A program made the position numbers and the translations under genes. A stretch of 64,000 bases of DNA from Escherichia coli. Lineage in GTDB: Bacteria > Pseudomonadota > Gammaproteobacteria > Enterobacterales > Enterobacteriaceae. Location of the stretch: NCBI RefSeq assembly GCF_017348835.2, contig NZ_CP071375.1. The stretch is one strand, 5' to 3'. Positions 1-33,059 of the stretch are shown here, piece by piece; position 1 is the stretch's first letter, and every line of letters begins with the position of its first letter. Below the pieces are notes generated by a model. It saw only the letters and a program-made list of their open reading frames with translations. It was not told the origin of the DNA and searched no databases.

Positions 1-1187
1 ATAAATGCAGCAATAAAACTATTGGTATATTGGACAATGAAGCCAGTTAAAATAGGGGCGATAATTCCCGAGGTGTTTGCCAGTAAATGTACAAAACCAC
101 CAACGCCACCGACTTTATCAGGGGAAATATTATCGGAGACAATTGCCCACGGCGCGGCAGCGGCGAGATACATAAAGAAGATACCCATTGCCATTAACAT
201 CACTGCATTTGTTACGGAGGCAACCTGACCCGCAAAACTGATACAAATAGCCGAGAGAATTAACCCTCCAACGATAATTAACTTTCTGGCCAGCAGCAGA
301 TTTTTGGTTTTGCGATATAACCAGTCTGAAAACATACCGCCAATAGCAATACCAACGCTACCAATAATCCACGGAATGGCCGAGGCAATACTCATCTCCT
401 GAATATTTAGTCCCTTTTCCATTGAGAGATAACTTGGAAACCAGGTTAAAAAGAAATACAGAATATAGTTAATAGAGAAGAATGCCAGGCCAGTGAACAG
501 AACTATAGGCTGGGTCAGGTAGAAGATAAAAGGCACTTTGGCTGAGTCAGTGCCGTAGCCTGGCGCGCCTTTTTGCGCCTCATCATACTCGGCAATTTCT
601 TCTTTCGATGTATGAGGGTTATTATGTGGACGATCGGTAAATGCTTTAATCCAGAAAAATGTCCAGATAAAACCCAGAGACATTAAAATGATAAAAGCGA
701 TGCGCCAGTTCCACATCACCACGATTGCGCCAACAATCGGACCCGCAATCGCACCACCCAAAGGGTTGCCCGCGTTTGCGATGCCCACAGCTCTGGCGCG
801 CTGATCAAGCGGAACCCAGTTACTAATGCATTTGTTGATCGTCGTACTAATCGGGCCTTCGCTCATCCCGAATAATACGCGCACGATAAACAAAGATATA
901 TAACCGAAAGCGAGGCCAGTCAGCCCACAGAACAATGACCAGGAAAGCATTGCAATGGCAAAAACTTTGCGGGGACCATAGAGATCGGATAAATAGCCAC
1001 CAACAAAGTTAAATAATGCATAACCAAAGAAAAAACTACTCAGCATAATCCCAACTTCGGCTGGGTTTAGGCCAAAATGATCTTTGATATAGGGCATTGC
1101 CACAGAAAATGCCGCACGATCGAGATAATTAATTATTCCAGCGATAAACAGCAGGAATAATATTTTGGAATGCTGTCGTTTGAACAT
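1..1187 (-). CDS. MFS transporter (anion:cation symporter-like), partial: N-terminus in window, C-terminus beyond left edge
   Basis: Minus-strand reading frame from ATG at 1187 to the window edge (~395 codons); translation is dominated by hydrophobic transmembrane-like segments with MFS-type motifs; not in the supplied ORF track because it lacks a stop in the window. Confidence 0.6.
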   Translation of the reverse strand, partial: MFKRQHSKILFLLFIAGIINYLDRAAFSVAMPYIKDHFGLNPAEVGIMLSSFFFGYALFNFVGGYLSDLYGPRKVFAIAMLSWSLFCGLTGLAFGYISLFIVRVLFGMSEGPISTTINKCISNWVPLDQRARAVGIANAGNPLGGAIAGPIVGAIVVMWNWRIAFIILMSLGFIWTFFWIKAFTDRPHNNPHTSKEEIAEYDEAQKGAPGYGTDSAKVPFIFYLTQPIVLFTGLAFFSINYILYFFLTWFPSYLSMEKGLNIQEMSIASAIPWIIGSVGIAIGGMFSDWLYRKTKNLLLARKLIIVGGLILSAICISFAGQVASVTNAVMLMAMGIFFMYLAAAAPWAIVSDNISPDKVGGVGGFVHLLANTSGIIAPILTGFIVQYTNSFIAAF

Positions 1188-3213: not shown

Positions 3214-4815
3214 ATGACTGAACAGGCAACAACAACCGATGAACTGGCTTTCACAAGGCCTTATGGCGAGCAGGAGAAGCAAATTCTTACTGCCGAAGCG
3301 GTAGAATTTCTGACTGAGCTGGTGACGCATTTTACGCCACAACGCAATAAACTTCTGGCGGCGCGTATTCAGCAGCAGCAAGATATTGATAACGGAACGT
3401 TGCCTGATTTTATTTCGGAAACAGCTTCCATTCGTGATACAGACTGGAAAATTCGTGGTATTCCCGCGGACTTACAAGATCGTCGAGTCGAGATAACTGG
3501 CCCGGTTGAGCGCAAGATGGTGATCAACGCACTCAACGCCAATGTGAAAGTCTTTATGGCCGATTTCGAAGATTCACTGGCACCAGACTGGAACAAAGTG
3601 ATCGACGGGCAAATAAACCTGCGTGATGCAGTTAACGGCACCATCAGCTATACCAATGAAGCAGGCAAAATTTATCAGCTCAAGCCCAATCCAGCGGTTT
3701 TGATTTGTCGGGTACGCGGTCTGCACTTGCCGGAAAAACATGTCACCTGGCGTGGTGAGGCAATCCCCGGTAGCCTGTTTGATTTTGTGCTCTATTTCTT
3801 CCACAACTATCAGGCACTGTTGGCAAAGGGCAGCGGTCCCTATTTCTATCTGCCGAAAACCCAGTCCTGGCAGGAAGCGGCCTGGTGGAGCGAAGTCTTC
3901 AGCTATGCAGAAGATCGCTTTAATCTGCCGCGCGGCACCATCAAGGCGACGTTGCTGATTGAAACGCTGCCCGCCGTGTTCCAGATGGACGAAATCCTTC
4001 ACGCACTGCGTGACCATATTGTTGGTCTGAACTGCGGTCGTTGGGATTACATCTTCAGTTATATCAAAACGTTGAAAAACTATCCCGATCGCGTCCTGCC
4101 AGACAGACAGGCAGTGACGATGGATAAACCATTCCTGAATGCTTACTCACGCCTGTTAATCAAAACCTGCCATAAACGCGGTGCTTTTGCGATGGGCGGC
4201 ATGGCGGCGTTTATTCCGAGCAAAGATGAAGAGCGCAATAACCAGGTGCTCAACAAAGTAAAAGCGGATAAATCGCTGGAAGCCAACAACGGTCACGATG
4301 GCACATGGATCGCTCACCCAGGCCTTGCGGATACGGCAATGGCGGTATTCAACGACATTCTCGGCTCCCGTAAAAATCAGCTTGAAGTGATGCGCGAACA
4401 AGACGCGCCGATTACTGCCAATCAGCTACTGGCACCTTGTGATGGTGAACGCACCGAAGAAGGTATGCGCGCCAACATTCGCGTGGCTGTGCAGTACATC
4501 GAAGCGTGGATCTCCGGCAACGGCTGCGTGCCGATTTATGGCCTGATGGAAGATGCGGCGACGGCTGAAATTTCCCGTACCTCGATCTGGCAGTGGATCC
4601 ATCATCAAAAAACGTTGAGCAATGGCAAACCGGTGACCAAAGCCTTGTTCCGCCAGATGCTGGGCGAAGAGATGAAAGTCATTGCCAGCGAACTGGGCGA
4701 AGAACGTTTCTCCCAGGGGCGTTTTGACGATGCCGCACGCTTGATGGAACAGATCACCACTTCCGATGAGTTAATTGATTTCCTGACCCTGCCAGGCTAC
4801 CGCCTGTTAGCGTAA
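3214..4815 (+). CDS. aceB: Malate synthase A
   Basis: ORF 3196..4815; protein [20 protein letters not shown]... recognised as AceB; start trimmed to the ATG giving 533 aa. Confidence 0.95.
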
Positions 4816-4844
4816 ACCACCACATAACTATGGAGCATCTGCAC

Positions 4845-6149
4845 ATGAAAACCCGTACACAACAAATTGAAGAATTACAGAAAGAGTGGACTCAACCGCG
4901 TTGGGAAGGCATTACTCGCCCATACAGCGCGGAAGATGTGGTGAAATTACGCGGTTCAGTCAATCCTGAATGCACGCTGGCGCAACTGGGCGCGGCGAAA
5001 ATGTGGCGTCTGCTGCATGGCGAGTCGAAAAAAGGCTACATCAACAGCCTCGGCGCACTGACTGGCGGTCAGGCGCTGCAACAGGCGAAAGCGGGTATTG
5101 AAGCAGTCTATCTGTCGGGATGGCAGGTAGCGGCGGACGCTAACCTGGCGGCCAGCATGTATCCGGATCAGTCGCTCTATCCGGCAAACTCGGTGCCAGC
5201 TGTGGTGGAGCGGATCAACAACACCTTCCGTCGTGCCGATCAGATCCAATGGTCCGCGGGCATTGAGCCGGGCGATCCGCGCTATGTCGATTACTTCCTG
5301 CCGATCGTTGCCGATGCGGAAGCCGGTTTTGGCGGTGTCCTGAATGCCTTTGAACTGATGAAAGCGATGATTGAAGCCGGTGCAGCGGCAGTTCACTTCG
5401 AAGATCAGCTGGCGTCAGTGAAGAAATGCGGTCACATGGGCGGCAAAGTTTTAGTGCCAACTCAGGAAGCTATTCAGAAACTGGTCGCGGCGCGTCTGGC
5501 AGCTGACGTGACGGGCGTTCCAACCCTGCTGGTTGCCCGTACCGATGCTGATGCGGCGGATCTGATCACCTCCGATTGCGACCCGTATGACAGCGAATTT
5601 ATTACCGGCGAGCGTACCAGTGAAGGCTTCTTCCGTACTCATGCGGGCATTGAGCAAGCGATCAGCCGTGGCCTGGCGTATGCGCCGTATGCTGACCTTG
5701 TATGGTGTGAAACTTCTACACCGGATCTGGAACTGGCGCGTCGCTTTGCACAAGCTATCCACGCGAAATATCCGGGCAAACTGCTGGCTTATAACTGCTC
5801 GCCGTCGTTCAACTGGCAGAAAAACCTCGACGACAAAACTATTGCCAGCTTCCAGCAGCAGCTGTCGGATATGGGCTACAAGTTCCAGTTCATCACCCTG
5901 GCAGGTATCCACAGCATGTGGTTCAACATGTTTGACCTGGCAAACGCCTATGCCCAGGGCGAGGGTATGAAGCACTACGTTGAGAAAGTGCAGCAGCCGG
6001 AATTTGCCGCCGCGAAAGATGGCTATACCTTCGTATCTCACCAGCAGGAAGTGGGTACAAGTTACTTCGATAAAGTGACGACTATTATTCAGGGCGGCAC
6101 GTCTTCAGTCACCGCGCTGACCGGCTCCACTGAAGAATCGCAGTTCTAA
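4845..6149 (+). CDS. aceA: Isocitrate lyase
   Basis: ORF 4830..6149; protein [15 protein letters not shown]... with the KKCGH active-site motif; trimmed to 434 aa. Confidence 0.95.
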
Positions 6150-6159
6150 GCAACCTACA

Positions 6160-6310
6160 AACGTTGCTGACTGTAGGCCGGATAAGGCATTTACGCCGCA
6201 TCCGGCAATCAGTGCACGATGCCTGATGCGACGCTTGCGCGTCTTATCATGCCTACAACCGTTGCCGAACGTAGGCTGGATAAGGCGTTTACGCCGCATC
6301 CGGCAATTCT
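6160..6310. repeat. REP (repetitive extragenic palindromic) cluster in the aceA-aceK intercistronic region
   Basis: Multiple copies of GCCGGATAAGGCGTTTACGCCGCATCCGGCA-type and GCCTGATGCGACGC-type palindromic units. Confidence 0.75.
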
Positions 6311-25993: not shown

Positions 25994-27121
25994 ATGATTA
26001 AAAAAATAAGCGTAAGAAAAGATCAGCTGGCATTACTCTCCAGAAACGGCGATTACTACAAAGTGCTGCATGCAGGCGAGCATATTTTACCCTGGTTAAA
26101 TACCCCGGAAGTGTTGCTGATTACGCTGGATGGTAGCGAAGTTCCCGACGTGCTTGCGGATTATTTGCGCCGCTTTCAGCCTGATTGGGTGGAGAAATAT
26201 TGCCTGGTGGCAGACTTGTCGGAGACTGAAGCCGGGGTGTTGTATATGGACGGTATTTTGTTGGAGATCCTGCCGCCATCAACGCGTCGTTTGTACTGGC
26301 GTGTAGAGGATGATTTGACGCTGGTGCGGATGAATACGCAGCAAGTCCCGGTACAAACGGAGGTGATGAATGCGGTATTACAGCCACGGCGCAAAGGAGT
26401 TGTTAAAGGCCGCGATGCGATACTGACGGTGCAGGTTCCGGCCTGGCATGTAGGCGTGCTGAAAATCGATGGTGAAACGCAGGCGCTGTTACCGCCGGGG
26501 CTGACTGCGTACTGGAAAATAAATCATCTGGTTGAAGCTGAAGTTGTCGACACCCGCTTGCAGGTACTGGAAGTCAGCGGGCAAGAAATCTTAACGAAAG
26601 ATAAGGTCAATCTGCGGATTAATCTCGCCGCTAACTGGCGCTATAGCGATGTGTTGCTGGCATTTAGTCAGCTAACGAAGCCGATTGATCATTTGTATCG
26701 GGAATTACAATTTGCCCTGCGTGAAGCGGTAGGTACGCGCACACTGGATGAACTGCTGGAAGATAAACAGGTCATTGATGACGTTGTTAGCGAGCAGGTG
26801 AAACTACGCATGAAGCCGTTCGGTATGGAGATCGCTTCGTTAGGAGTAAAAGATATCGTCCTGCCTGGCGATATGAAAAATATTCTTGCGCAACTGGTAG
26901 AGGCGGAGAAATCCGCGCAGGCCAATGTGATTCGCCGACGTGAAGAAACGGCAGCGACGCGCTCGTTACTGAACACCGCCAAAGTCATGGAGAACAATCC
27001 GGTAGCGTTGCGTTTAAAAGAGCTGGAAACGCTGGAGAGAGTGGCTGAGCGGATTGATAACATCTCTGTATTTGGCGGTCTGGATCAGGTTCTGCATGGG
27101 TTGGTTAATATCAAAGGGTGA
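25994..27121 (+). CDS. Soluble SPFH/band-7 (stomatin/prohibitin-like) domain protein with a novel ~170-aa N-terminal domain
   Basis: 375-aa ORF; C-terminal half has SPFH-like features (VSGQEILTKDKVNLRINLAANWRY...AEKSAQANVIRRREETAATRSL); no evident N-terminal transmembrane segment; AAGGA Shine-Dalgarno before the ATG. Confidence 0.7.
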   Translation: MIKKISVRKDQLALLSRNGDYYKVLHAGEHILPWLNTPEVLLITLDGSEVPDVLADYLRRFQPDWVEKYCLVADLSETEAGVLYMDGILLEILPPSTRRLYWRVEDDLTLVRMNTQQVPVQTEVMNAVLQPRRKGVVKGRDAILTVQVPAWHVGVLKIDGETQALLPPGLTAYWKINHLVEAEVVDTRLQVLEVSGQEILTKDKVNLRINLAANWRYSDVLLAFSQLTKPIDHLYRELQFALREAVGTRTLDELLEDKQVIDDVVSEQVKLRMKPFGMEIASLGVKDIVLPGDMKNILAQLVEAEKSAQANVIRRREETAATRSLLNTAKVMENNPVALRLKELETLERVAERIDNISVFGGLDQVLHGLVNIKG

Positions 27122-27918
27122 GTAACATGCCATTAAATGGAGTCAGTGCTGCGATGCGCGAAAGGGTATCGCAGCAGTTAAAAGAAATTGAACGTCGCTA
27201 TGGCGTGAAAGTGCTGTACGCCTGCGAATCGGGGAGTCGCGGCTGGGGATTTGCTTCGCCCGACAGCGATTACGATGTGCGGTTTTTGTATGTCCATCCG
27301 CTGGAATGGTATCTGCGGGTAGAGGCACCACGCGATGTTATCGAACTGCCCATCGACGACGAGTTAGATGTTTCCGGTTGGGAATGGCGCAAAGCGCTGG
27401 GATTGCTGAAAGGTGCGAATCCCACGCTAATTGAATGGCTGGATTCACCGGTGGTCTATCAGCAAGATGAAGAGACGATAACGGCGCTTAAGGCAATGGT
27501 CCCAACGTGGTTTTCTCCGTTGCGTGCGCGCTGGCATTACTATTCGATGGCGCAGAAAAACTTCCGCGGATATTTGCAGGGCGATGAAGTTCGACTGAAA
27601 AAATACTTTTACGTGCTGCGTCCGTTGCTGGCCGTGCGTTGGGTTGAAGCGGGAAAAGGCGTACCGCCAATGCGTTTTTCCGAATTGCTGGCGGGAAGTG
27701 AGTTGGATGCGGCCTTACGCGCAGAAATAGATGAATTACTGGAACGTAAACAGCGTGCGGGTGAAGCGGAATATGGCCCACGCCGTCCATTGCTACATGC
27801 GTTTATCCATGCGGAACTGGCGCGTGGGGAAATTCCGCCTGTGTTACCGGATAGTAGAGAAGGGGACGTTAAGAAACTGGATAGCTTACTGTACCAGACG
27901 GTAATGCGCCGGGCGTGA
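27118..27918 (+). CDS. Pol-beta-superfamily nucleotidyltransferase
   Basis: 266-aa ORF; ESGSRGWGFASPDSDYDVRF fits the hG[GS]x9-13DxD nucleotidyltransferase signature; GTG start at 27118 overlaps the upstream stop (GTGA), alternative ATG at 27127 with AGGGTG Shine-Dalgarno. Confidence 0.7.
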   Translation: MSNMPLNGVSAAMRERVSQQLKEIERRYGVKVLYACESGSRGWGFASPDSDYDVRFLYVHPLEWYLRVEAPRDVIELPIDDELDVSGWEWRKALGLLKGANPTLIEWLDSPVVYQQDEETITALKAMVPTWFSPLRARWHYYSMAQKNFRGYLQGDEVRLKKYFYVLRPLLAVRWVEAGKGVPPMRFSELLAGSELDAALRAEIDELLERKQRAGEAEYGPRRPLLHAFIHAELARGEIPPVLPDSREGDVKKLDSLLYQTVMRRA

Positions 27919-27950: not shown

Positions 27951-28880
27951 TTATTCTTGTGCACTTCCGCTGATTTCATTTTGTATATGCGTTGCAATAT
28001 CGCAATTGGTTGCCGCTTGTGAACTAAATATCATCTTCTCACGCGAATACACCGCAAACTTATCTGCCAGGTTTGAAGCAAACACCTTGCTGGCATTTTC
28101 TGCTAGCAAATCGGTAACGATATCATGGTGATTTTTATCCACTTTGCGGGCGATATTTCCCGCCTCTTTGTCCTTATTATACCCTTCGTTGGTGCTTTCC
28201 CAGCTTAATGCCGCTGAGGTGGTTTTTATCATGACTTCTGTTCGGTAGCCTGCATCTTTGAGTTTTTTTAATGTTTGTAGCGGCGTAGCGGCATTACGAA
28301 ATGTTCCTTCGACAACAATATTGAGTTTATTGGCTATGGCCCTCTCTATTGCACGTTCGACCGTTTCGCCGGAAAATTTTGCCGTATGGGTAACAAAATC
28401 GTCGCCATAAGTTTGATATATATAATTAAAATCAGGGTGTAGAAATCTGAAATCATCACCATTAATAATCATTATATTATTCTTTGTTTCCCTTTTTGCT
28501 AATTCGATTAGGGCGGATTTTCCGGCTCCTGGTTGTCCACCTAAAACAAAACCAATGGGACTCTGCTGGGATGTGACGTCATGGTTTGTCAGACGCTGCC
28601 AAATAGAATCAAAAGACGCTTTATTTTCTGAATGCGCAGTATTATTAAATTCACGCTGATACTTTTTTCTGACCTGCTGGAGGCGTAACTTTCCCTGTGT
28701 AAAATCAACAAGTTCTGCTGGAGTGGAATAAAGATTGTCGCGATAGCTGACTAATTGTGATAGCTCATCGTCTGAGTCCTGAACTTGTGAGGAAAAACAA
28801 CTGTCGACGATATTTGATAAAAACGCGATGCACTGACTGGTGCCGTTTAAAAGTGCATCTTTTTCCATTAAAGTAGCCAT
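27951..28880 (-). CDS. ezeT: Single-chain zeta-toxin family protein (EzeT-like UDP-GlcNAc kinase toxin with N-terminal cis-antitoxin domain)
   Basis: ORF 27951..28886; Walker A GGQPGAGKS placed ~110 residues from the N-terminus (long N-terminal extension); zeta-toxin-like C-terminal region; likely ATG at 28880 preceded by AGGAG; AT-rich. Confidence 0.7.
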   Translation of the reverse strand: MATLMEKDALLNGTSQCIAFLSNIVDSCFSSQVQDSDDELSQLVSYRDNLYSTPAELVDFTQGKLRLQQVRKKYQREFNNTAHSENKASFDSIWQRLTNHDVTSQQSPIGFVLGGQPGAGKSALIELAKRETKNNIMIINGDDFRFLHPDFNYIYQTYGDDFVTHTAKFSGETVERAIERAIANKLNIVVEGTFRNAATPLQTLKKLKDAGYRTEVMIKTTSAALSWESTNEGYNKDKEAGNIARKVDKNHHDIVTDLLAENASKVFASNLADKFAVYSREKMIFSSQAATNCDIATHIQNEISGSAQE

Positions 28881-29024
28881 TAACACTCCTGTTAAATAAT
28901 ATTTTTCGGTGATTATAATACTGTTCTACAGGAGTGATTTTGCATTTCAGATATTATTTAATCTATGTTTGCAGTGAGGATGGCGTATAACAATTGGTGA
29001 GCGTTATACGCCAGTAGGAAAATA

Positions 29025-30374
29025 TTACTCAAACAAATTACTATGCAGTTTTTGCACCACCTGCTCGGCATCTTCGCCGGGCACCAGGAAGCACAGGTTA
29101 TGGCTGGATGCGCCGTAACAAATCATGCGAATGTTGAACGGTTCCAGTACGCCGAATACCTCTTTGCCAACGCCGCAGGCTTTTGACAGGTCATTGCCAA
29201 TCAACGCGACCAGCGCCAGACCTTCTTCTACTTCCACCCGGCACAGTGCGGAAAGCTCCATCAGCAGAGATTGCGTCAGCAACGTATCGCCAGTGGAGGT
29301 TGAACCGGTGGTATCAAGGGTTAATGCCACGCTCACTTCTGACGTGGTGATTAAGTCTACCGAAATATTATGCCGCGCGAGGATGCCGAAAACTTCCGCG
29401 AGGAAGCCGCGAGAATGCAGCATATTCAGGCTGTGCAAAGTGAGCAGAGTCTGATTGCGACGAAGCGCCAGCGCGCGGAACAGCGGCGGATTTTCAGTTT
29501 TATTGCATACCAGCGTACCACCTGCGCGTGGGTCTTTGCTGGAGCCGACAAAGACCGGGATATCGCTGCGTACTGCGGGTAGCAATGTTGCCGGATGCAG
29601 TACTTTTGCACCAAAAGTTGCCATCTCTGCTGCTTCGGCAAACGCGATTTCATCAATGCGTTTTGCTGCGGAAACCACGCGTGGATCGGTGGTGTAGATG
29701 CCCGGGACGTCGGTCCAGATATCAACACGAGATGCGTGTAAAGCCTCCGCCAGCAAGGCTGCCGTATAATCGCTGCCTCCACGGCCAAGCGTCGTTGTAC
29801 GACCTTTATTTTCGCTACCGATAAATCCCTGGGTGATCACTAAACCTTCATTGAGACGTGGGAGCAGCTGCAGCGCGGCCAGTTCCGCCAGCGCGGCTAT
29901 ATCTGGCTCTGCACGACCAAATCGGTCGTTGGTACGCATCACTTTACGTACATCAAACCACTGTGCCTGAACATCGCGTTCGCGCAGGATCTCAACAAAC
30001 AGCAGGGTCGACATCAGCTCGCCGTGGCTGACCAGCTCATCTGTCAGCGCCGGAGACGTTGCCAGCGCCGCCGCTTCTGCCAGAACAGTAATGTTCTCCA
30101 GCAGACGTTCAATCTCTTCACGGATAACGTTCGGGTAACGCAGACGTTCCAGAATGGCAAACTGGATGTTGCGAATAGCGTCGAGTTTTTCGAATCGCTC
30201 GCCAGGTTCCAGCCCTTCCGCTAAAGCGACCAGCAGATTAGTGATACCAGCAGAAGCCGAGAGGACAACTAAACGCACGTTGGCATCAGAAAGCACAATA
30301 TCAGCGCTGCGGTTCATGGCGTCAAAATCAGCTACGCTGGTACCGCCAAATTTGGAGACAACAATTTCAGACAT
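29025..30374 (-). CDS. lysC: Lysine-sensitive aspartokinase III
   Basis: 449-aa ORF MSEIVVSKFGGTSVADFDAMNRSADIVLSDANVRLVVLSASAGITN... recognised as LysC. Confidence 0.95.
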   Translation of the reverse strand: MSEIVVSKFGGTSVADFDAMNRSADIVLSDANVRLVVLSASAGITNLLVALAEGLEPGERFEKLDAIRNIQFAILERLRYPNVIREEIERLLENITVLAEAAALATSPALTDELVSHGELMSTLLFVEILRERDVQAQWFDVRKVMRTNDRFGRAEPDIAALAELAALQLLPRLNEGLVITQGFIGSENKGRTTTLGRGGSDYTAALLAEALHASRVDIWTDVPGIYTTDPRVVSAAKRIDEIAFAEAAEMATFGAKVLHPATLLPAVRSDIPVFVGSSKDPRAGGTLVCNKTENPPLFRALALRRNQTLLTLHSLNMLHSRGFLAEVFGILARHNISVDLITTSEVSVALTLDTTGSTSTGDTLLTQSLLMELSALCRVEVEEGLALVALIGNDLSKACGVGKEVFGVLEPFNIRMICYGASSHNLCFLVPGEDAEQVVQKLHSNLFE

Positions 30375-30439
30375 AACTACCTCGTGTCAGGGGATCCATT
30401 TTCAGCCTTGGCACAAGGGAAGAGCGGAAGACGGGTGGG

Positions 30440-30660
30440 CGCAGAGCGATACTTCGCTACTATTTTCACCCAGAAGTGCTCCACCACTTGCGAAACGCCC
30501 GACTGCGAACGCTTCTGGTGACAACCCAGGGGATTCAGCCCCTGTAGCCGATGATGAACGTGGCCAGCCGTTCAATCACCTCGGCGATGCACCCCCTCAG
30601 GTGTTATCACAGGACTGGCTCCTCCAACACCGTTACTTGGGCAACGCGCCTCTTCTGGCC
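30440..30660 (-). ncRNA. Lysine riboswitch (LYS element) in the lysC 5' leader
   Basis: Long 5' leader on the minus strand upstream of lysC; reverse complement contains AGAGGCGCGUUGCCCAAGUAACGGUGUUGGAGGAGCCAG ... GGUGCAUCGCCGAGGUGAUUGAACGG, consistent with the known lysC lysine aptamer; boundaries approximate. Confidence 0.65.
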
Positions 30661-30898
30661 TGCGCTAGCGCAGGTAGTACATTTATAAATAAAGGGTGAG
30701 CGGGGCGGTTGTCAACGACGGGGTCATGCGGATTTTTCATCCACTCCTGGCGGTCAGTAGTTCAGCTAATAAATGCTTCACTGCGCTAAGGGTTTACACT
30801 CAACATTACGCTAACGGCACTAAAACCATCACATTTTTCTGTGACTGGCGCTACAATCTTCCAAAGTCACAATTCTCAAAATCAGAAGAGTATTGCTA

Positions 30899-32548
30899 AT
30901 GAAAAACATCAATCCAACGCAGACCGCTGCCTGGCAGGCACTACAGAAACACTTCGATGAAATGAAAGACGTTACGATCGCCGATCTTTTTGCTAAAGAC
31001 GGCGATCGTTTTTCTAAGTTCTCCGCAACCTTCGACGATCAGATGCTGGTGGATTACTCCAAAAACCGCATCACTGAAGAGACGCTGGCGAAATTACAAG
31101 ATCTGGCGAAAGAGTGCGATCTGGCGGGCGCGATTAAGTCGATGTTCTCTGGCGAGAAGATCAACCGCACTGAAAACCGCGCTGTGCTGCACGTAGCGCT
31201 GCGTAACCGTAGCAATACCCCGATTTTGGTTGATGGCAAAGACGTAATGCCGGAAGTCAACACGGTGCTGGAGAAGATGAAAACCTTCTCGGAAGCGATT
31301 ATCTCCGGTGAGTGGAAGGGTTATACCGGCAAAGCAATCACTGACGTAGTGAACATCGGGATCGGCGGTTCTGACCTCGGCCCGTACATGGTGACCGAAG
31401 CACTGCGTCCGTACAAAAATCACCTGAACATGCACTTTGTTTCTAACGTCGATGGGACTCACATCGCGGAAGTGCTGAAAAAAATAAACCCGGAAACCAC
31501 GCTGTTCCTGGTAGCATCTAAAACCTTCACCACTCAGGAAACCATGACCAACGCCCATAGCGCGCGTGACTGGTTCCTGAAAGCGGCAGGTGATGAAAAA
31601 CACGTTGCGAAACACTTTGCGGCGCTATCAACCAATGCCAAAGCCGTTGGCGAGTTTGGTATTGATACTGCCAACATGTTCGAGTTCTGGGACTGGGTCG
31701 GCGGTCGTTACTCTTTGTGGTCAGCGATTGGCCTGTCGATTGTTCTCTCCATCGGCTTTGATAACTTCGTTGAACTGCTTTCTGGCGCACACGCGATGGA
31801 CAAGCATTTCTCCACCACGCCTGCCGAGAAAAACCTGCCTGTCCTGCTGGCGCTGATTGGCATCTGGTACAACAATTTCTTTGGTGCGGAAACTGAAGCG
31901 ATTCTGCCGTATGACCAGTATATGCACCGTTTCGCGGCGTACTTCCAGCAGGGCAATATGGAGTCCAACGGTAAGTATGTTGACCGTAACGGTAACGTTG
32001 TGGATTACCAGACTGGCCCGATTATCTGGGGTGAACCAGGCACTAACGGTCAGCACGCGTTCTACCAGCTGATCCATCAGGGAACCAAAATGGTACCGTG
32101 CGATTTCATCGCCCCGGCTATCACCCATAACCCGCTCTCTGATCATCACCAGAAACTGCTGTCTAACTTCTTTGCTCAGACCGAAGCGCTGGCGTTTGGT
32201 AAATCCCGCGAAGTGGTTGAGCAGGAATATCGCGATCAGGGTAAAGATCCGGCAACGCTTGACTACGTGGTTCCGTTCAAAGTGTTCGAAGGTAACCGCC
32301 CGACCAACTCTATCCTGTTGCGCGAAATCACTCCGTTCAGCCTGGGTGCGTTGATTGCGCTGTATGAGCACAAAATCTTTACTCAGGGCGTGATCCTGAA
32401 CATCTTCACCTTCGACCAGTGGGGCGTGGAACTGGGTAAACAGCTGGCGAACCGTATTCTGCCAGAGCTGAAAGATGATAAAGAAATCAGCAGCCACGAT
32501 AGCTCGACCAATGGTCTGATTAACCGCTATAAAGCGTGGCGCGGTTAA
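30899..32548 (+). CDS. pgi: Glucose-6-phosphate isomerase
   Basis: ORF 30893..32548 trimmed to [19 protein letters not shown]... (549 aa). Confidence 0.95.
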
Positions 32549-32550
32549 TC

Positions 32551-32660
32551 ATCGTTCATGCCTGATGCCGCTATGTAGGCCGGATAAGGCGTTCACGCCG
32601 CATCCGGCAACCGATGCCTGATGCGACGCGGTCGCGTCTTATCAGGCCTACAGGTCGATG
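32551..32660. repeat. REP cluster downstream of pgi
   Basis: GCCTGATGCCGCTATGTAGGCCGGATAAGGCGTTCACGCCGCATCCGGCA and GCCTGATGCGACGCGGTCGCGTCTTATCAGGCCTACA units. Confidence 0.75.
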
Positions 32661-32720
32661 CCGATATGTACATCGTATTCGGCAATTAATACATAGCACG
32701 ATTGATTAAATAACCTTAAT

Positions 32721-32755
32721 AACAATGCCGACGTTATGTCGGCATTGTTTTATCA
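32721..32755 (+). terminator. Strong intrinsic terminator (12-bp perfect stem) downstream of pgi
   Basis: AACAATGCCGAC-gttat-GTCGGCATTGTT followed by TTATC. Confidence 0.55.
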
Positions 32756-33059
32756 GATAAATCCCCTTGTCTGTTATTTAACGGAAATCATACCGTGAGG
32801 TTAATCCTAAAATAGATTTTTAATCGTGATTGATTTCGGAAAATACTCAGATTAATTACTTTTACTTTTATTTTAACATTATGATTTTTAATATTATTTA
32901 TATATAAGTTGTAGCTTATATTTGATATTCATTCCAATTATCCTAAAACCCCATCTCTAATTCCCCGCGCCGTAATTCGCATGCTTTAGTTGTGTATACT
33001 CGATCCCGCCCGAAATGTTTTTGGGTAAATCTCCATTCATTCAATGAAGGGAAATTGTT

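What the first reader, a model, noticed from the sequence alone, without database searches (positions are those of the whole stretch)
30375..30720. Long lysC leader carrying a lysine riboswitch
About 300 nt separate the lysC start from the divergent pgi region, and the minus-strand leader contains sequence blocks matching the known lysC LYS-element aptamer. It is a cis-regulatory RNA not captured by the ORF track.
Basis: partly seen in the sequence, partly recalled or inferred. Interest (0 to 1): 0.3.

Follow-up and report, generated by a model that had tools for sequence, protein, structure and literature searches.

The report
Known E. coli lysC lysine riboswitch
The long untranslated leader in front of the aspartokinase gene lysC is the well-studied E. 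coli lysine riboswitch, an RNA that binds lysine and shuts the gene off; it is real but already annotated and already characterised.

Summary
Its own test is strongly positive: Rfam RF00168 (Lysine riboswitch) matches window 30662..30466 on the minus strand, full length, at 99.5 bits (cut-off 30, E 3e-25). The element sits in the roughly 306-nt leader of lysC (CDS 30374..29025, minus strand).

The window is E. coli chromosome. The same stretch occurs in 5425 of 5426 complete E. coli genomes, and RefSeq annotates a 'riboswitch' at exactly these coordinates. The transcribed leader is base-for-base identical to that of a K-12-lineage strain.

All 36 gammaproteobacterial lysC loci I tested carry the aptamer. 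Helices P2, P2a, P3, P4 and a P5 extension show compensatory base changes.

Downstream of the aptamer I find three mutually exclusive pairings:
- P1
- an anti-P1 helix (+190-214 with +244-268)
- a hairpin that sequesters the Shine-Dalgarno sequence (+263-301)

I also find a C-rich, G-poor tract at about +241-268. These features match the published mechanism. In that mechanism, bound lysine stabilises P1, the ribosome-binding site is hidden, and RNase E sites and a Rho loading site are exposed. There is no intrinsic terminator.

Two details were imprecise. The lysC-pgi spacer is 524 nt, not about 300. Positions 30681-30720 are promoter, not leader.

Novelty: already known. Interest is low.

The parts
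30466..30662 (-). Lysine riboswitch aptamer (leader +19..+215): five helices P1-P5 around the lysine-binding junction.
   Evidence: Rfam RF00168 at 99.5 bits, E 3e-25, full model. Same coordinates as the RefSeq 'riboswitch' feature. Covariation in P2, P2a, P3 and P4.
30652..30657 (-). P1 5' strand (CAGAAG, +24..+29).
   Evidence: Consensus structure of the Rfam alignment. Invariant in 16 distinct Enterobacteriaceae sequences (helix 2).
30471..30476 (-). P1 3' strand (CUUCUG, +205..+210), the switching strand.
   Evidence: Its 3' end (+209, +210) joins the alternative anti-P1 helix in the unconstrained fold; +204..+208 is an internal loop of that helix.
30492..30515 (-). P5 extension hairpin (+166..+189). 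It is an insertion relative to the Rfam consensus P5 loop.
   Evidence: Insert shown in the alignment. 96% of cells paired and 6 of 10 pairs with compensatory changes, reached by 0 of 500 shuffles.
30467..30491 (-). 5' strand of the predicted anti-P1 (antisequestering) helix (+190..+214). It overlaps the 3' strands of P5 and P1.
   Evidence: Unconstrained minimum-free-energy fold. The helix alone is -22.3 kcal/mol. 95.9% of cells paired across relatives, with one-sided changes only.
30413..30437 (-). 3' strand of the anti-P1 helix (+244..+268). [quoted passage not shown]
   Evidence: C reaches 52-56% and G falls to 12-16% around +243..+253. Ghosh 2024 places a rut site at about position 240, overlapping the RNase E sites.
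30428..30431 (-). RNase E 'Site1' (UCUU, +250..+253).
   Evidence: Positions 250-253 are named Site1 in PMC10946432. I mapped them with +1 = 30680.
30380..30418 (-). Hairpin that sequesters the Shine-Dalgarno sequence (+263..+301): CCUUGUG(+263-269) pairs with CACGAGG(+295-301), and +271-275 pairs with +289-293.
   Evidence: It is the minimum-free-energy structure of the local sequence (-11.0 kcal/mol) and lies within 0.7 kcal/mol of the optimum in longer contexts. All 7 core pairs are invariant in 16 sequences. My prediction; I could not view the published figure.
30380..30383 (-). Shine-Dalgarno GAGG (+298..+301), 5 nt before the AUG.
   Evidence: Read directly from the sequence. Invariant in the alignment.
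30372..30374 (-). lysC start codon AUG (+307..+309). G309 is the published pause and Rho-dependent termination position.
29025..30374 (-). lysC coding sequence (lysine-sensitive aspartokinase III, 449 aa), the regulated gene.
   Evidence: ORF. RefSeq annotation of the identical stretch.
30659..30674 (-). 5'-terminal hairpin of the leader (+7..+22, CCUGCG-CUAG-CGCAGG), upstream of P1.
   Evidence: -9.9 kcal/mol. Compensatory changes in part of the Enterobacteriaceae, but a different sequence in Kosakonia and Enterobacter (helix 1).
30680..30680 (-). Inferred transcription start (+1, G).
   Evidence: Inferred from the published numbering, in which G309 coincides with the AUG. Not measured here.
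30710..30715 (-). Candidate -35 hexamer TTGACA of the lysC promoter.
   Evidence: Read directly from the sequence. The consensus scan called no full promoter here because no good -10 hexamer lies at 16-18 nt. Assignment uncertain.

Best explanation
This is the E. coli lysC lysine riboswitch. It is a cis-acting RNA in the 306-nt leader of the gene for lysine-sensitive aspartokinase III.

The aptamer (+19..+215) binds L-lysine. Without lysine, the 3' side of the aptamer (+190..+214) pairs with a C-rich segment (+244..+268). This anti-P1 helix hides the C-rich segment and leaves the Shine-Dalgarno sequence free, so lysC is transcribed, stable and translated.

With lysine bound, P1 and P5 are held closed and the C-rich segment is released. 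Its 3' end (+263..+269) pairs with the Shine-Dalgarno region (+295..+301) and blocks translation initiation. The rest of the segment becomes single-stranded, where RNase E cleaves it and Rho loads, terminating transcription at the start of the ORF.

Shown here: the aptamer, its covariation, the three mutually exclusive pairings, the C-rich tract, the absence of an intrinsic terminator, and sequence identity to a K-12-lineage leader. Taken from the literature: lysine binding, RNase E cleavage and Rho termination.
For: - Aptamer: RF00168 at 99.5 bits against a cut-off of 30, full length. RefSeq has a riboswitch feature at the same coordinates.
- Distribution: the stretch is present in 5425 of 5426 complete E. 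coli genomes, 5417 of them at 99% identity or more.
- Identity: the only difference from an O16:H48 (K-12-lineage) strain over window 30300-30950 is at 30719, upstream of the transcript.
- Relatives: 16 of 16 Enterobacteriaceae and 20 of 20 Pseudoalteromonas, Shewanella and Aliidiomarina lysC loci carry the aptamer above the gathering score.
- Covariation: 19 aptamer pairs have changes on both sides, reached by 0 of 500 shuffles; 90.8% of cells are paired against 37-46% when partners are slid. The P5 extension has 6 of 10 compensatory pairs.
- Alternative pairings: the anti-P1 helix appears in the unconstrained minimum-free-energy fold and is 95.9% paired in relatives. The sequester hairpin is the local minimum-free-energy structure and is invariant.
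- Distant lineages: the same three-part logic is rebuilt with different sequence in Pseudoalteromonas. There GUUCUCCUU is complementary both to the P1 3' strand and to AAGGAGA, and the inner stem co-varies. The Shine-Dalgarno sequence pairs with CCUC or CUUC in 12 of 12 distinct leaders. Shewanella has the same arrangement by reading of the sequences; the duplex test shows overlapping segments there.
- C-rich tract at +241..+268, matching the published rut and RNase E region, Site1 at 250-253 and G309 at the AUG (PMC10946432). PMC5584792 reports the lysC riboswitch across Gammaproteobacteria.
Against: - Nothing contradicts the assignment.
- Simple thermodynamic ensembles do not show a clear change in Shine-Dalgarno accessibility between the aptamer-enforced and free states (unpaired probability 0.41 against 0.54).
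- Duplex energies of the anti-P1 and sequester pairings are not significantly better than mononucleotide shuffles of the C/U-rich middle segment in Enterobacteriaceae (z about -0.3 to -1).
- The anti-P1 and sequester helices show no compensatory changes in the 16 close relatives, because both strands are invariant.
- The transcription start and the promoter hexamers are inferred, not measured.
- I could not read Caron et al. 2012, so my helix boundaries may differ from the published drawing.
Confidence: 0.97

Rival explanations
1. It is a Bacillus-type (L-box) transcriptional lysine riboswitch. Lysine binding would form an intrinsic terminator hairpin followed by a U-tract in the leader.
For: Most lysine riboswitches in Firmicutes work this way (PMC10946432 introduction; PMC5584792). 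The aptamer family is the same.
Against: The scan finds no terminator-like stem plus T-run on the minus strand anywhere in the leader. The only minus-strand site (30929-30915) is upstream of the promoter, within the pgi coding region. The expression platform instead contains a hairpin that sequesters the Shine-Dalgarno sequence and a C-rich tract. The literature assigns termination here to Rho.
Confidence: 0.01
2. The aptamer is present but regulation of lysC in this strain is mainly by other means, such as promoter-level protein control. The leader would then be a relic or a minor contributor.
For: PMC10946432 notes additional regulation through DNA elements at the promoter. This window differs from the K-12-lineage sequence by one base at 30719, just upstream of the -35 hexamer.
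Against: The transcribed leader is identical to that of a K-12-lineage strain. It is at least 99% conserved in 5417 genomes. The expression-platform blocks are invariant across 16 Enterobacteriaceae species while neighbouring loop sequences vary, which indicates purifying selection on the switch. Published fusions show riboswitch-dependent repression of up to about 8.5-fold.
Confidence: 0.02
3. The leader works by leader-peptide (ribosome-mediated) attenuation, through a small ORF in the 5' UTR, rather than by direct ligand sensing.
For: Mechanical ORFs exist on the minus strand in the leader, for example 30575..30402 (57 aa, TTG start).
Against: That ORF runs through aptamer helices. Relatives have insertions and deletions there that are not multiples of three, such as P5 loop insertions of variable length. 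The conservation pattern is that of base-paired RNA, and there is no terminator to attenuate at.
Confidence: 0.003

Closest known systems
E. coli K-12 lysC lysine riboswitch (Rfam RF00168; Caron et al. 2012 PNAS; Ghosh et al. 2024 RNA, PMC10946432)
   Same: Same gene, same position and same strand. The transcribed leader and the first 75 nt of lysC are identical to a K-12-lineage (O16:H48) strain. The aptamer, anti-P1 helix, Shine-Dalgarno sequestration, C-rich rut and RNase E tract, UCUU at +250..253 and AUG at +307..309 all map as published.
   Different: Nothing within the RNA. There is one base difference at window 30719, at -39 relative to the inferred start and just upstream of the -35 hexamer.
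Bacillus subtilis lysC L-box / lysine riboswitch (transcription-terminating type)
   Same: Same aptamer family (RF00168), same ligand and same regulated enzyme class.
   Different: The expression platform differs. B. subtilis uses an intrinsic terminator and anti-terminator. This leader has no terminator and uses Shine-Dalgarno sequestration together with RNase E and Rho (literature).
lysC leaders of Pseudoalteromonas and Shewanella (found)
   Same: The aptamer scores above the Rfam cut-off. The logic is the same: one segment is complementary both to the P1 3' strand and to the Shine-Dalgarno sequence.
   Different: The primary sequence of the expression platform is unrelated. There is no P5 extension (aptamers of 171-176 nt against 197 nt). 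No equivalent C-rich tract is evident by eye; this was not quantified.

Membership tests
Lysine riboswitch (Rfam RF00168) | Sequence-plus-structure match to the family covariance model at or above the curated gathering score | tested here: met
   99.5 bits against 30, E 3.1e-25, model positions 1-182 of 182, not truncated.
Lysine riboswitch (Rfam RF00168) | Five helices P1-P5 around a junction, supported by base pairing and covariation | tested here: met
   47 of 51 consensus pairs are canonical in this sequence. In 16 distinct Enterobacteriaceae sequences, 90.8% of cells pair and 19 pairs have compensatory changes, reached by 0 of 500 shuffles. Slid controls give 37-46% paired. P1 and P5 are invariant, so they carry no information either way.
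Lysine riboswitch (Rfam RF00168) | Conserved junction nucleotides (AGAGGNGC, GCCGA, CUGUCA, UGGAGNNCU) | tested here: met
   All four blocks are present and invariant in the 17-sequence alignment: G26-G32, G96-G101, T158-C164 and T198-C203.
Lysine riboswitch (Rfam RF00168) | Located in the 5' UTR, on the sense strand, of a lysine biosynthesis or transport gene | tested here: met
   On the minus strand, 92 nt upstream of the lysC ATG. Same arrangement in 36 of 36 related lysC loci tested.
Lysine riboswitch (Rfam RF00168) | Direct, selective binding of L-lysine by the RNA | not testable with these tools
   Rests on the literature for the E. coli lysC leader (PMC10946432 and the references it cites). 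The sequence here is identical to a K-12-lineage leader.
Translational, dual-acting E. coli-type lysC riboswitch (Shine-Dalgarno sequestration plus RNase E plus Rho) | Mutually exclusive P1, anti-P1 and Shine-Dalgarno-sequester pairings | tested here: met
   All three were found in silico: anti-P1 in the minimum-free-energy fold and the sequester hairpin as the local minimum-free-energy structure. They overlap at +263..268 and at +190..214 against P5 and P1. The strands are invariant in relatives. Energies of the explicit models are OFF -69.2 and ON -72.1 kcal/mol. Ensemble accessibility of the Shine-Dalgarno sequence changes only weakly.
Translational, dual-acting E. coli-type lysC riboswitch (Shine-Dalgarno sequestration plus RNase E plus Rho) | C-rich, G-poor rut tract and RNase E sites inside the anti-P1 3' strand | tested here: met
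   52-56% C and 12-16% G at about +243..253. UCUU at +250..253 is the published Site1. Cleavage and Rho loading themselves were not tested.
Transcription-terminating (L-box, Firmicutes-type) lysine riboswitch | Intrinsic terminator (GC-rich stem followed by a U-run) in the expression platform | tested here: not met
   No terminator-like site on the minus strand between 30375 and 30680.

The most novel reading that the evidence does not exclude
The most novel reading my evidence leaves open concerns two parts of the leader that vary between lineages. One is the 5'-terminal hairpin (+7..+22). The other is the P5 loop, which carries an 18-nt hairpin in E. coli and 30-65 further nt in some Klebsiella, Cedecea, Citrobacter and Kosakonia species. 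These could carry an extra regulatory input, such as a protein or sRNA docking site. Alternatively, the fragments of about 250-309 nt left by Rho termination or RNase E cleavage could act in trans as a small RNA. Neither idea is supported by anything beyond the existence and covariation of these elements.
Probability: 0.04. Interest if true: 0.4.

Novelty: already known. Interest (0 to 1): 0.05.

Why it matters
It matters only as a correct annotation. The lysC leader is one of the best-studied riboswitches, a model for riboswitches that control translation, mRNA decay and Rho termination together. Confirming it shows that the first-stage reader can recognise a structured cis-regulatory RNA from raw sequence. 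It adds no new biology. The comparative data gathered here agree with the published view that the lysC riboswitch is ancestral in Gammaproteobacteria.

Tried and rejected
- Reading Caron et al. 2012 by DOI and by PMC id: the paper is not held. My helix boundaries for the anti-P1 and sequester stems therefore come from my own folding, not from the published figure.
- Consensus promoter scan: no sigma-70 call for lysC on the minus strand. TTGACA at 30715-30710 has no good -10 hexamer at 16-18 nt, so the promoter hexamers stay unassigned. I took +1 from the published numbering.
- Ensemble test of Shine-Dalgarno accessibility, with the aptamer enforced or free: only a weak difference (0.41 against 0.54 unpaired). 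Plain thermodynamic folding of the whole leader does not reproduce the switch cleanly.
- Duplex-energy test of the anti-P1 and anti-SD pairings against shuffles of the middle segment. It is not significant for Enterobacteriaceae (z about -0.3 to -1) because the segment is C/U-rich. It is clearer for Pseudoalteromonas and Shewanella (z -2 to -4 for anti-P1).
- Covariation for the anti-P1 and sequester helices: uninformative in close relatives, because both strands are invariant.
- Intrinsic-terminator and leader-peptide mechanisms: considered and rejected.

Full report
**1. Observation**

Window 30100-31100, read on the minus strand, shows the lysC start (ATG at 30374, MSEIVVSKFGGTS...) preceded by a long non-coding stretch. 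I scanned the whole window against Rfam 15 at gathering thresholds. That gave one Lysine riboswitch hit (RF00168) at 30662..30466 on the minus strand. It scored 99.5 bits against a cut-off of 30, with E 3.1e-25, covered model positions 1-182 of 182, and was not truncated.

I projected the Rfam consensus structure onto the sequence. Of the 51 consensus pairs present, 47 are canonical.

The spacer from the lysC ATG (30374) to the divergent pgi ATG (30899) is 524 nt, not about 300. The top of the interval (30681-30720) lies upstream of the transcript.

**2. Identity of the locus**

Window 30300-30950 matches 5425 of 5426 complete E. coli genomes, 5417 of them at 99% identity or more. Under the match RefSeq lists 'riboswitch | lysC | pgi'. 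In O157:H7 strain PV15-279 the match is 100% identical. Converted to window coordinates, its riboswitch feature spans 30662..30466, lysC starts at 30374 and pgi at 30899.

Against an O16:H48 (K-12-lineage) strain, the only difference in 651 nt is at window 30719. That is -39 relative to the inferred start, upstream of the transcript. So the RNA here is identical to that of a K-12-lineage strain, the background in which the experiments were done.

**3. Coordinates in the published numbering**

Ghosh et al. 2024 (PMC10946432) number from the transcription start and state that G309 coincides with the AUG. This places +1 at G30680 and the AUG at +307..+309. The mapping then gives:

| Feature | Leader position | Window |
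|---|---|---|
| Aptamer | +19..+215 | 30662-30466 |
| RNase E Site1 (UCUU; published positions 250-253) | +250..+253 | 30431-30428 |
| C-rich, G-poor tract (52-56% C, 12-16% G) | about +241..+268 | 30440-30413 |
| Shine-Dalgarno GAGG | +298..+301 | 30383-30380 |

The C-rich tract corresponds to the published rut site 'around position 240', which overlaps the RNase E sites.

**4. Anatomy of the switch (my folding)**

- **Anti-P1 helix.** The unconstrained minimum-free-energy fold of the leader does not form P1 or P5. Instead it pairs +190..+214 with +244..+268. This helix is worth -22.3 kcal/mol on its own. It corresponds to the 'anti-P1 / antisequestering stem' of the literature.
- **Sequester hairpin.** The local minimum-free-energy structure of +255..+312 is a hairpin. 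CCUUGUG (+263-269) pairs with CACGAGG (+295-301), and +271-275 pairs with +289-293. It is worth -11.0 kcal/mol and buries the Shine-Dalgarno sequence. In longer contexts it lies within 0.7 kcal/mol of the optimum.
- **Mutual exclusion.** P1/P5, anti-P1 and the sequester hairpin share strands and cannot coexist. The explicit ON model (-72.1 kcal/mol) and OFF model (-69.2 kcal/mol) are close in energy before any contribution from the ligand.
- **No intrinsic terminator.** There is no terminator-like site on the minus strand in the leader.

**5. Related sequences**

I scanned one genome per species with a pattern linking the P5-P1 junction (TGGAGNNCT) to the conserved V-[VA]-x-KFGGT start of LysC. 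This returned 60 loci. All 16 Enterobacteriaceae loci tested, and all 20 Pseudoalteromonas, Shewanella and Aliidiomarina loci tested, carry RF00168 above the gathering score, at 79-110 bits.

I aligned the E. coli leader with the 16 Enterobacteriaceae leaders (17 rows, 16 distinct sequences; A1).

- **Aptamer.** 90.8% of cells are paired, against 37-46% in slid controls. Nineteen pairs have compensatory changes, reached by 0 of 500 shuffles. These changes are concentrated in P2, P2a, P3 and P4.
- **P5 extension.** This hairpin is absent from the Rfam consensus. It is 96% paired, with 6 of 10 pairs compensatory.
- **Invariant strands.** P1, P5, the anti-P1 strands and the sequester hairpin are invariant or change on one side only. 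This fits strands that must satisfy two alternative pairings, but it gives no covariation evidence.
- **One variable base.** The only variable base in the CCUUGUGCCA(A/U)GG block is +273, which is a mismatch in the predicted hairpin.

In Pseudoalteromonas and Shewanella the expression platform has an unrelated sequence but the same logic. In Pseudoalteromonas, UGCCAAG..GUUCUCCUU is complementary to the P1 3' strand GGAGAGCUUCUGGCA, and its 3' end is also complementary to the Shine-Dalgarno sequence AAGGAGA. In 12 of 12 distinct leaders the local fold pairs GGAG with CCUC or CUUC. The inner stem differs in sequence between species while staying paired. Across 50 distinct leaders, the best anti-P1 segment and the best anti-SD segment overlap in 44.

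**6. Mechanism**

The evidence combines two kinds of support. Shown here are the anatomy, conservation and sequence identity. Published for the E. coli lysC leader (PMC10946432) are the functional results.

- **Without lysine:** the anti-P1 helix forms, the Shine-Dalgarno sequence is free and lysC is expressed.
- **With lysine:** P1 is stabilised, the Shine-Dalgarno sequence is sequestered, RNase E cleaves the exposed Site1 and Site2, and Rho loads on the overlapping C-rich rut and terminates at G309 and within the ORF.

PMC5584792 reports that this lysC riboswitch is conserved in Enterobacterales and widespread in Gammaproteobacteria.

**7. Weak points**

- Plain ensemble folding shows only a small shift in Shine-Dalgarno accessibility between states.
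- Duplex energies in Enterobacteriaceae are not better than shuffles of the C/U-rich segment.
- The promoter hexamers are not confidently assigned.
- I could not read Caron et al. 2012.

None of these bears on the identification.

**8. Verdict**

The element is the already annotated, experimentally characterised E. coli lysC lysine riboswitch. Novelty: already known. Interest is low.

Noticed in passing
window 27118-27918 (+) and 27951-28886 (-): Immediately downstream of lysC lies a convergent gene pair: an RlaP / DNA polymerase beta-superfamily nucleotidyltransferase (PF10127, E 1e-96) and a zeta-toxin family P-loop protein (PF06414, E 6e-39). The segment is accessory. Only 1633 of 5426 complete E. 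coli genomes match it, only 41 of them at 99% or more, and most at 90-95%, so this window carries a rare allele.
   Followed up: partly
locus L063 (E. coli WB61, NZ_CP020025.1), 3569-5529: In one E. coli genome the match to the leader stops at window 30382, inside the Shine-Dalgarno GAGG. About 2 kb follows, carrying an ISEcp1 transposase and a DUF4942 pseudogene fragment, inserted between the riboswitch and lysC. This natural insertion should uncouple lysC from its riboswitch.
   Followed up: partly
window 30492-30515 (-), and alignment A1 columns 176-276: The P5 loop of the aptamer is a hotspot for lineage-specific insertions. E. coli has an 18-nt hairpin absent from the Rfam consensus. Klebsiella sp. 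BIGb0407, Cedecea, Citrobacter sp. JGM124 and two Kosakonia species carry a further 30-65 nt there, some with their own inverted repeats.
   Followed up: partly
window 30659-30674 (-): A 6-bp hairpin lies at the very 5' end of the leader (+7..+22), before P1. It shows compensatory changes in Citrobacter, Cedecea and Klebsiella relatives but is replaced by unrelated sequence in Kosakonia and Enterobacter. A possible 5'-end stabiliser; not tested.
   Followed up: no
window 30426-30432 (-) versus 30419-30425 (-): The published RNase E Site1 (+250..253, UCUU) lies in a stretch that varies among Enterobacteriaceae (UCUUCC, UUCC, UUUAUC, UAUACC, UUUUUC). The next block, CGCUCUUCCCUUGUGCC, is nearly invariant.
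   Followed up: no
window 30719: This is the single base that differs from a K-12-lineage strain over 30300-30950 (G here, A there, on the lysC strand). It lies at -39 relative to the inferred start, just upstream of the TTGACA -35 candidate of the lysC promoter.
   Followed up: no
window 6176-6253, 32578-32648, 42249-42319 (+): Three Rfam naRNA4 hits (64-80 bits). These are REP/BIME-type palindromic repeat units. One lies just after the pgi stop codon.
   Followed up: no
window 32714-32863 (-): An Rfam STnc430 enterobacterial sRNA hit (68.6 bits, cut-off 47) between pgi and yjbE. The same family also appears in the Pseudocitrobacter and UBA3516 lysC loci, 1.9-2.1 kb from the riboswitch.
   Followed up: no
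window 30828-30857 (+): The only sigma-70-like promoter match in the intergenic region (ATCACA-18-TACAAT, 9 of 12) is on the plus strand, 42 nt before the pgi ATG. It is plausibly the pgi promoter.
   Followed up: no
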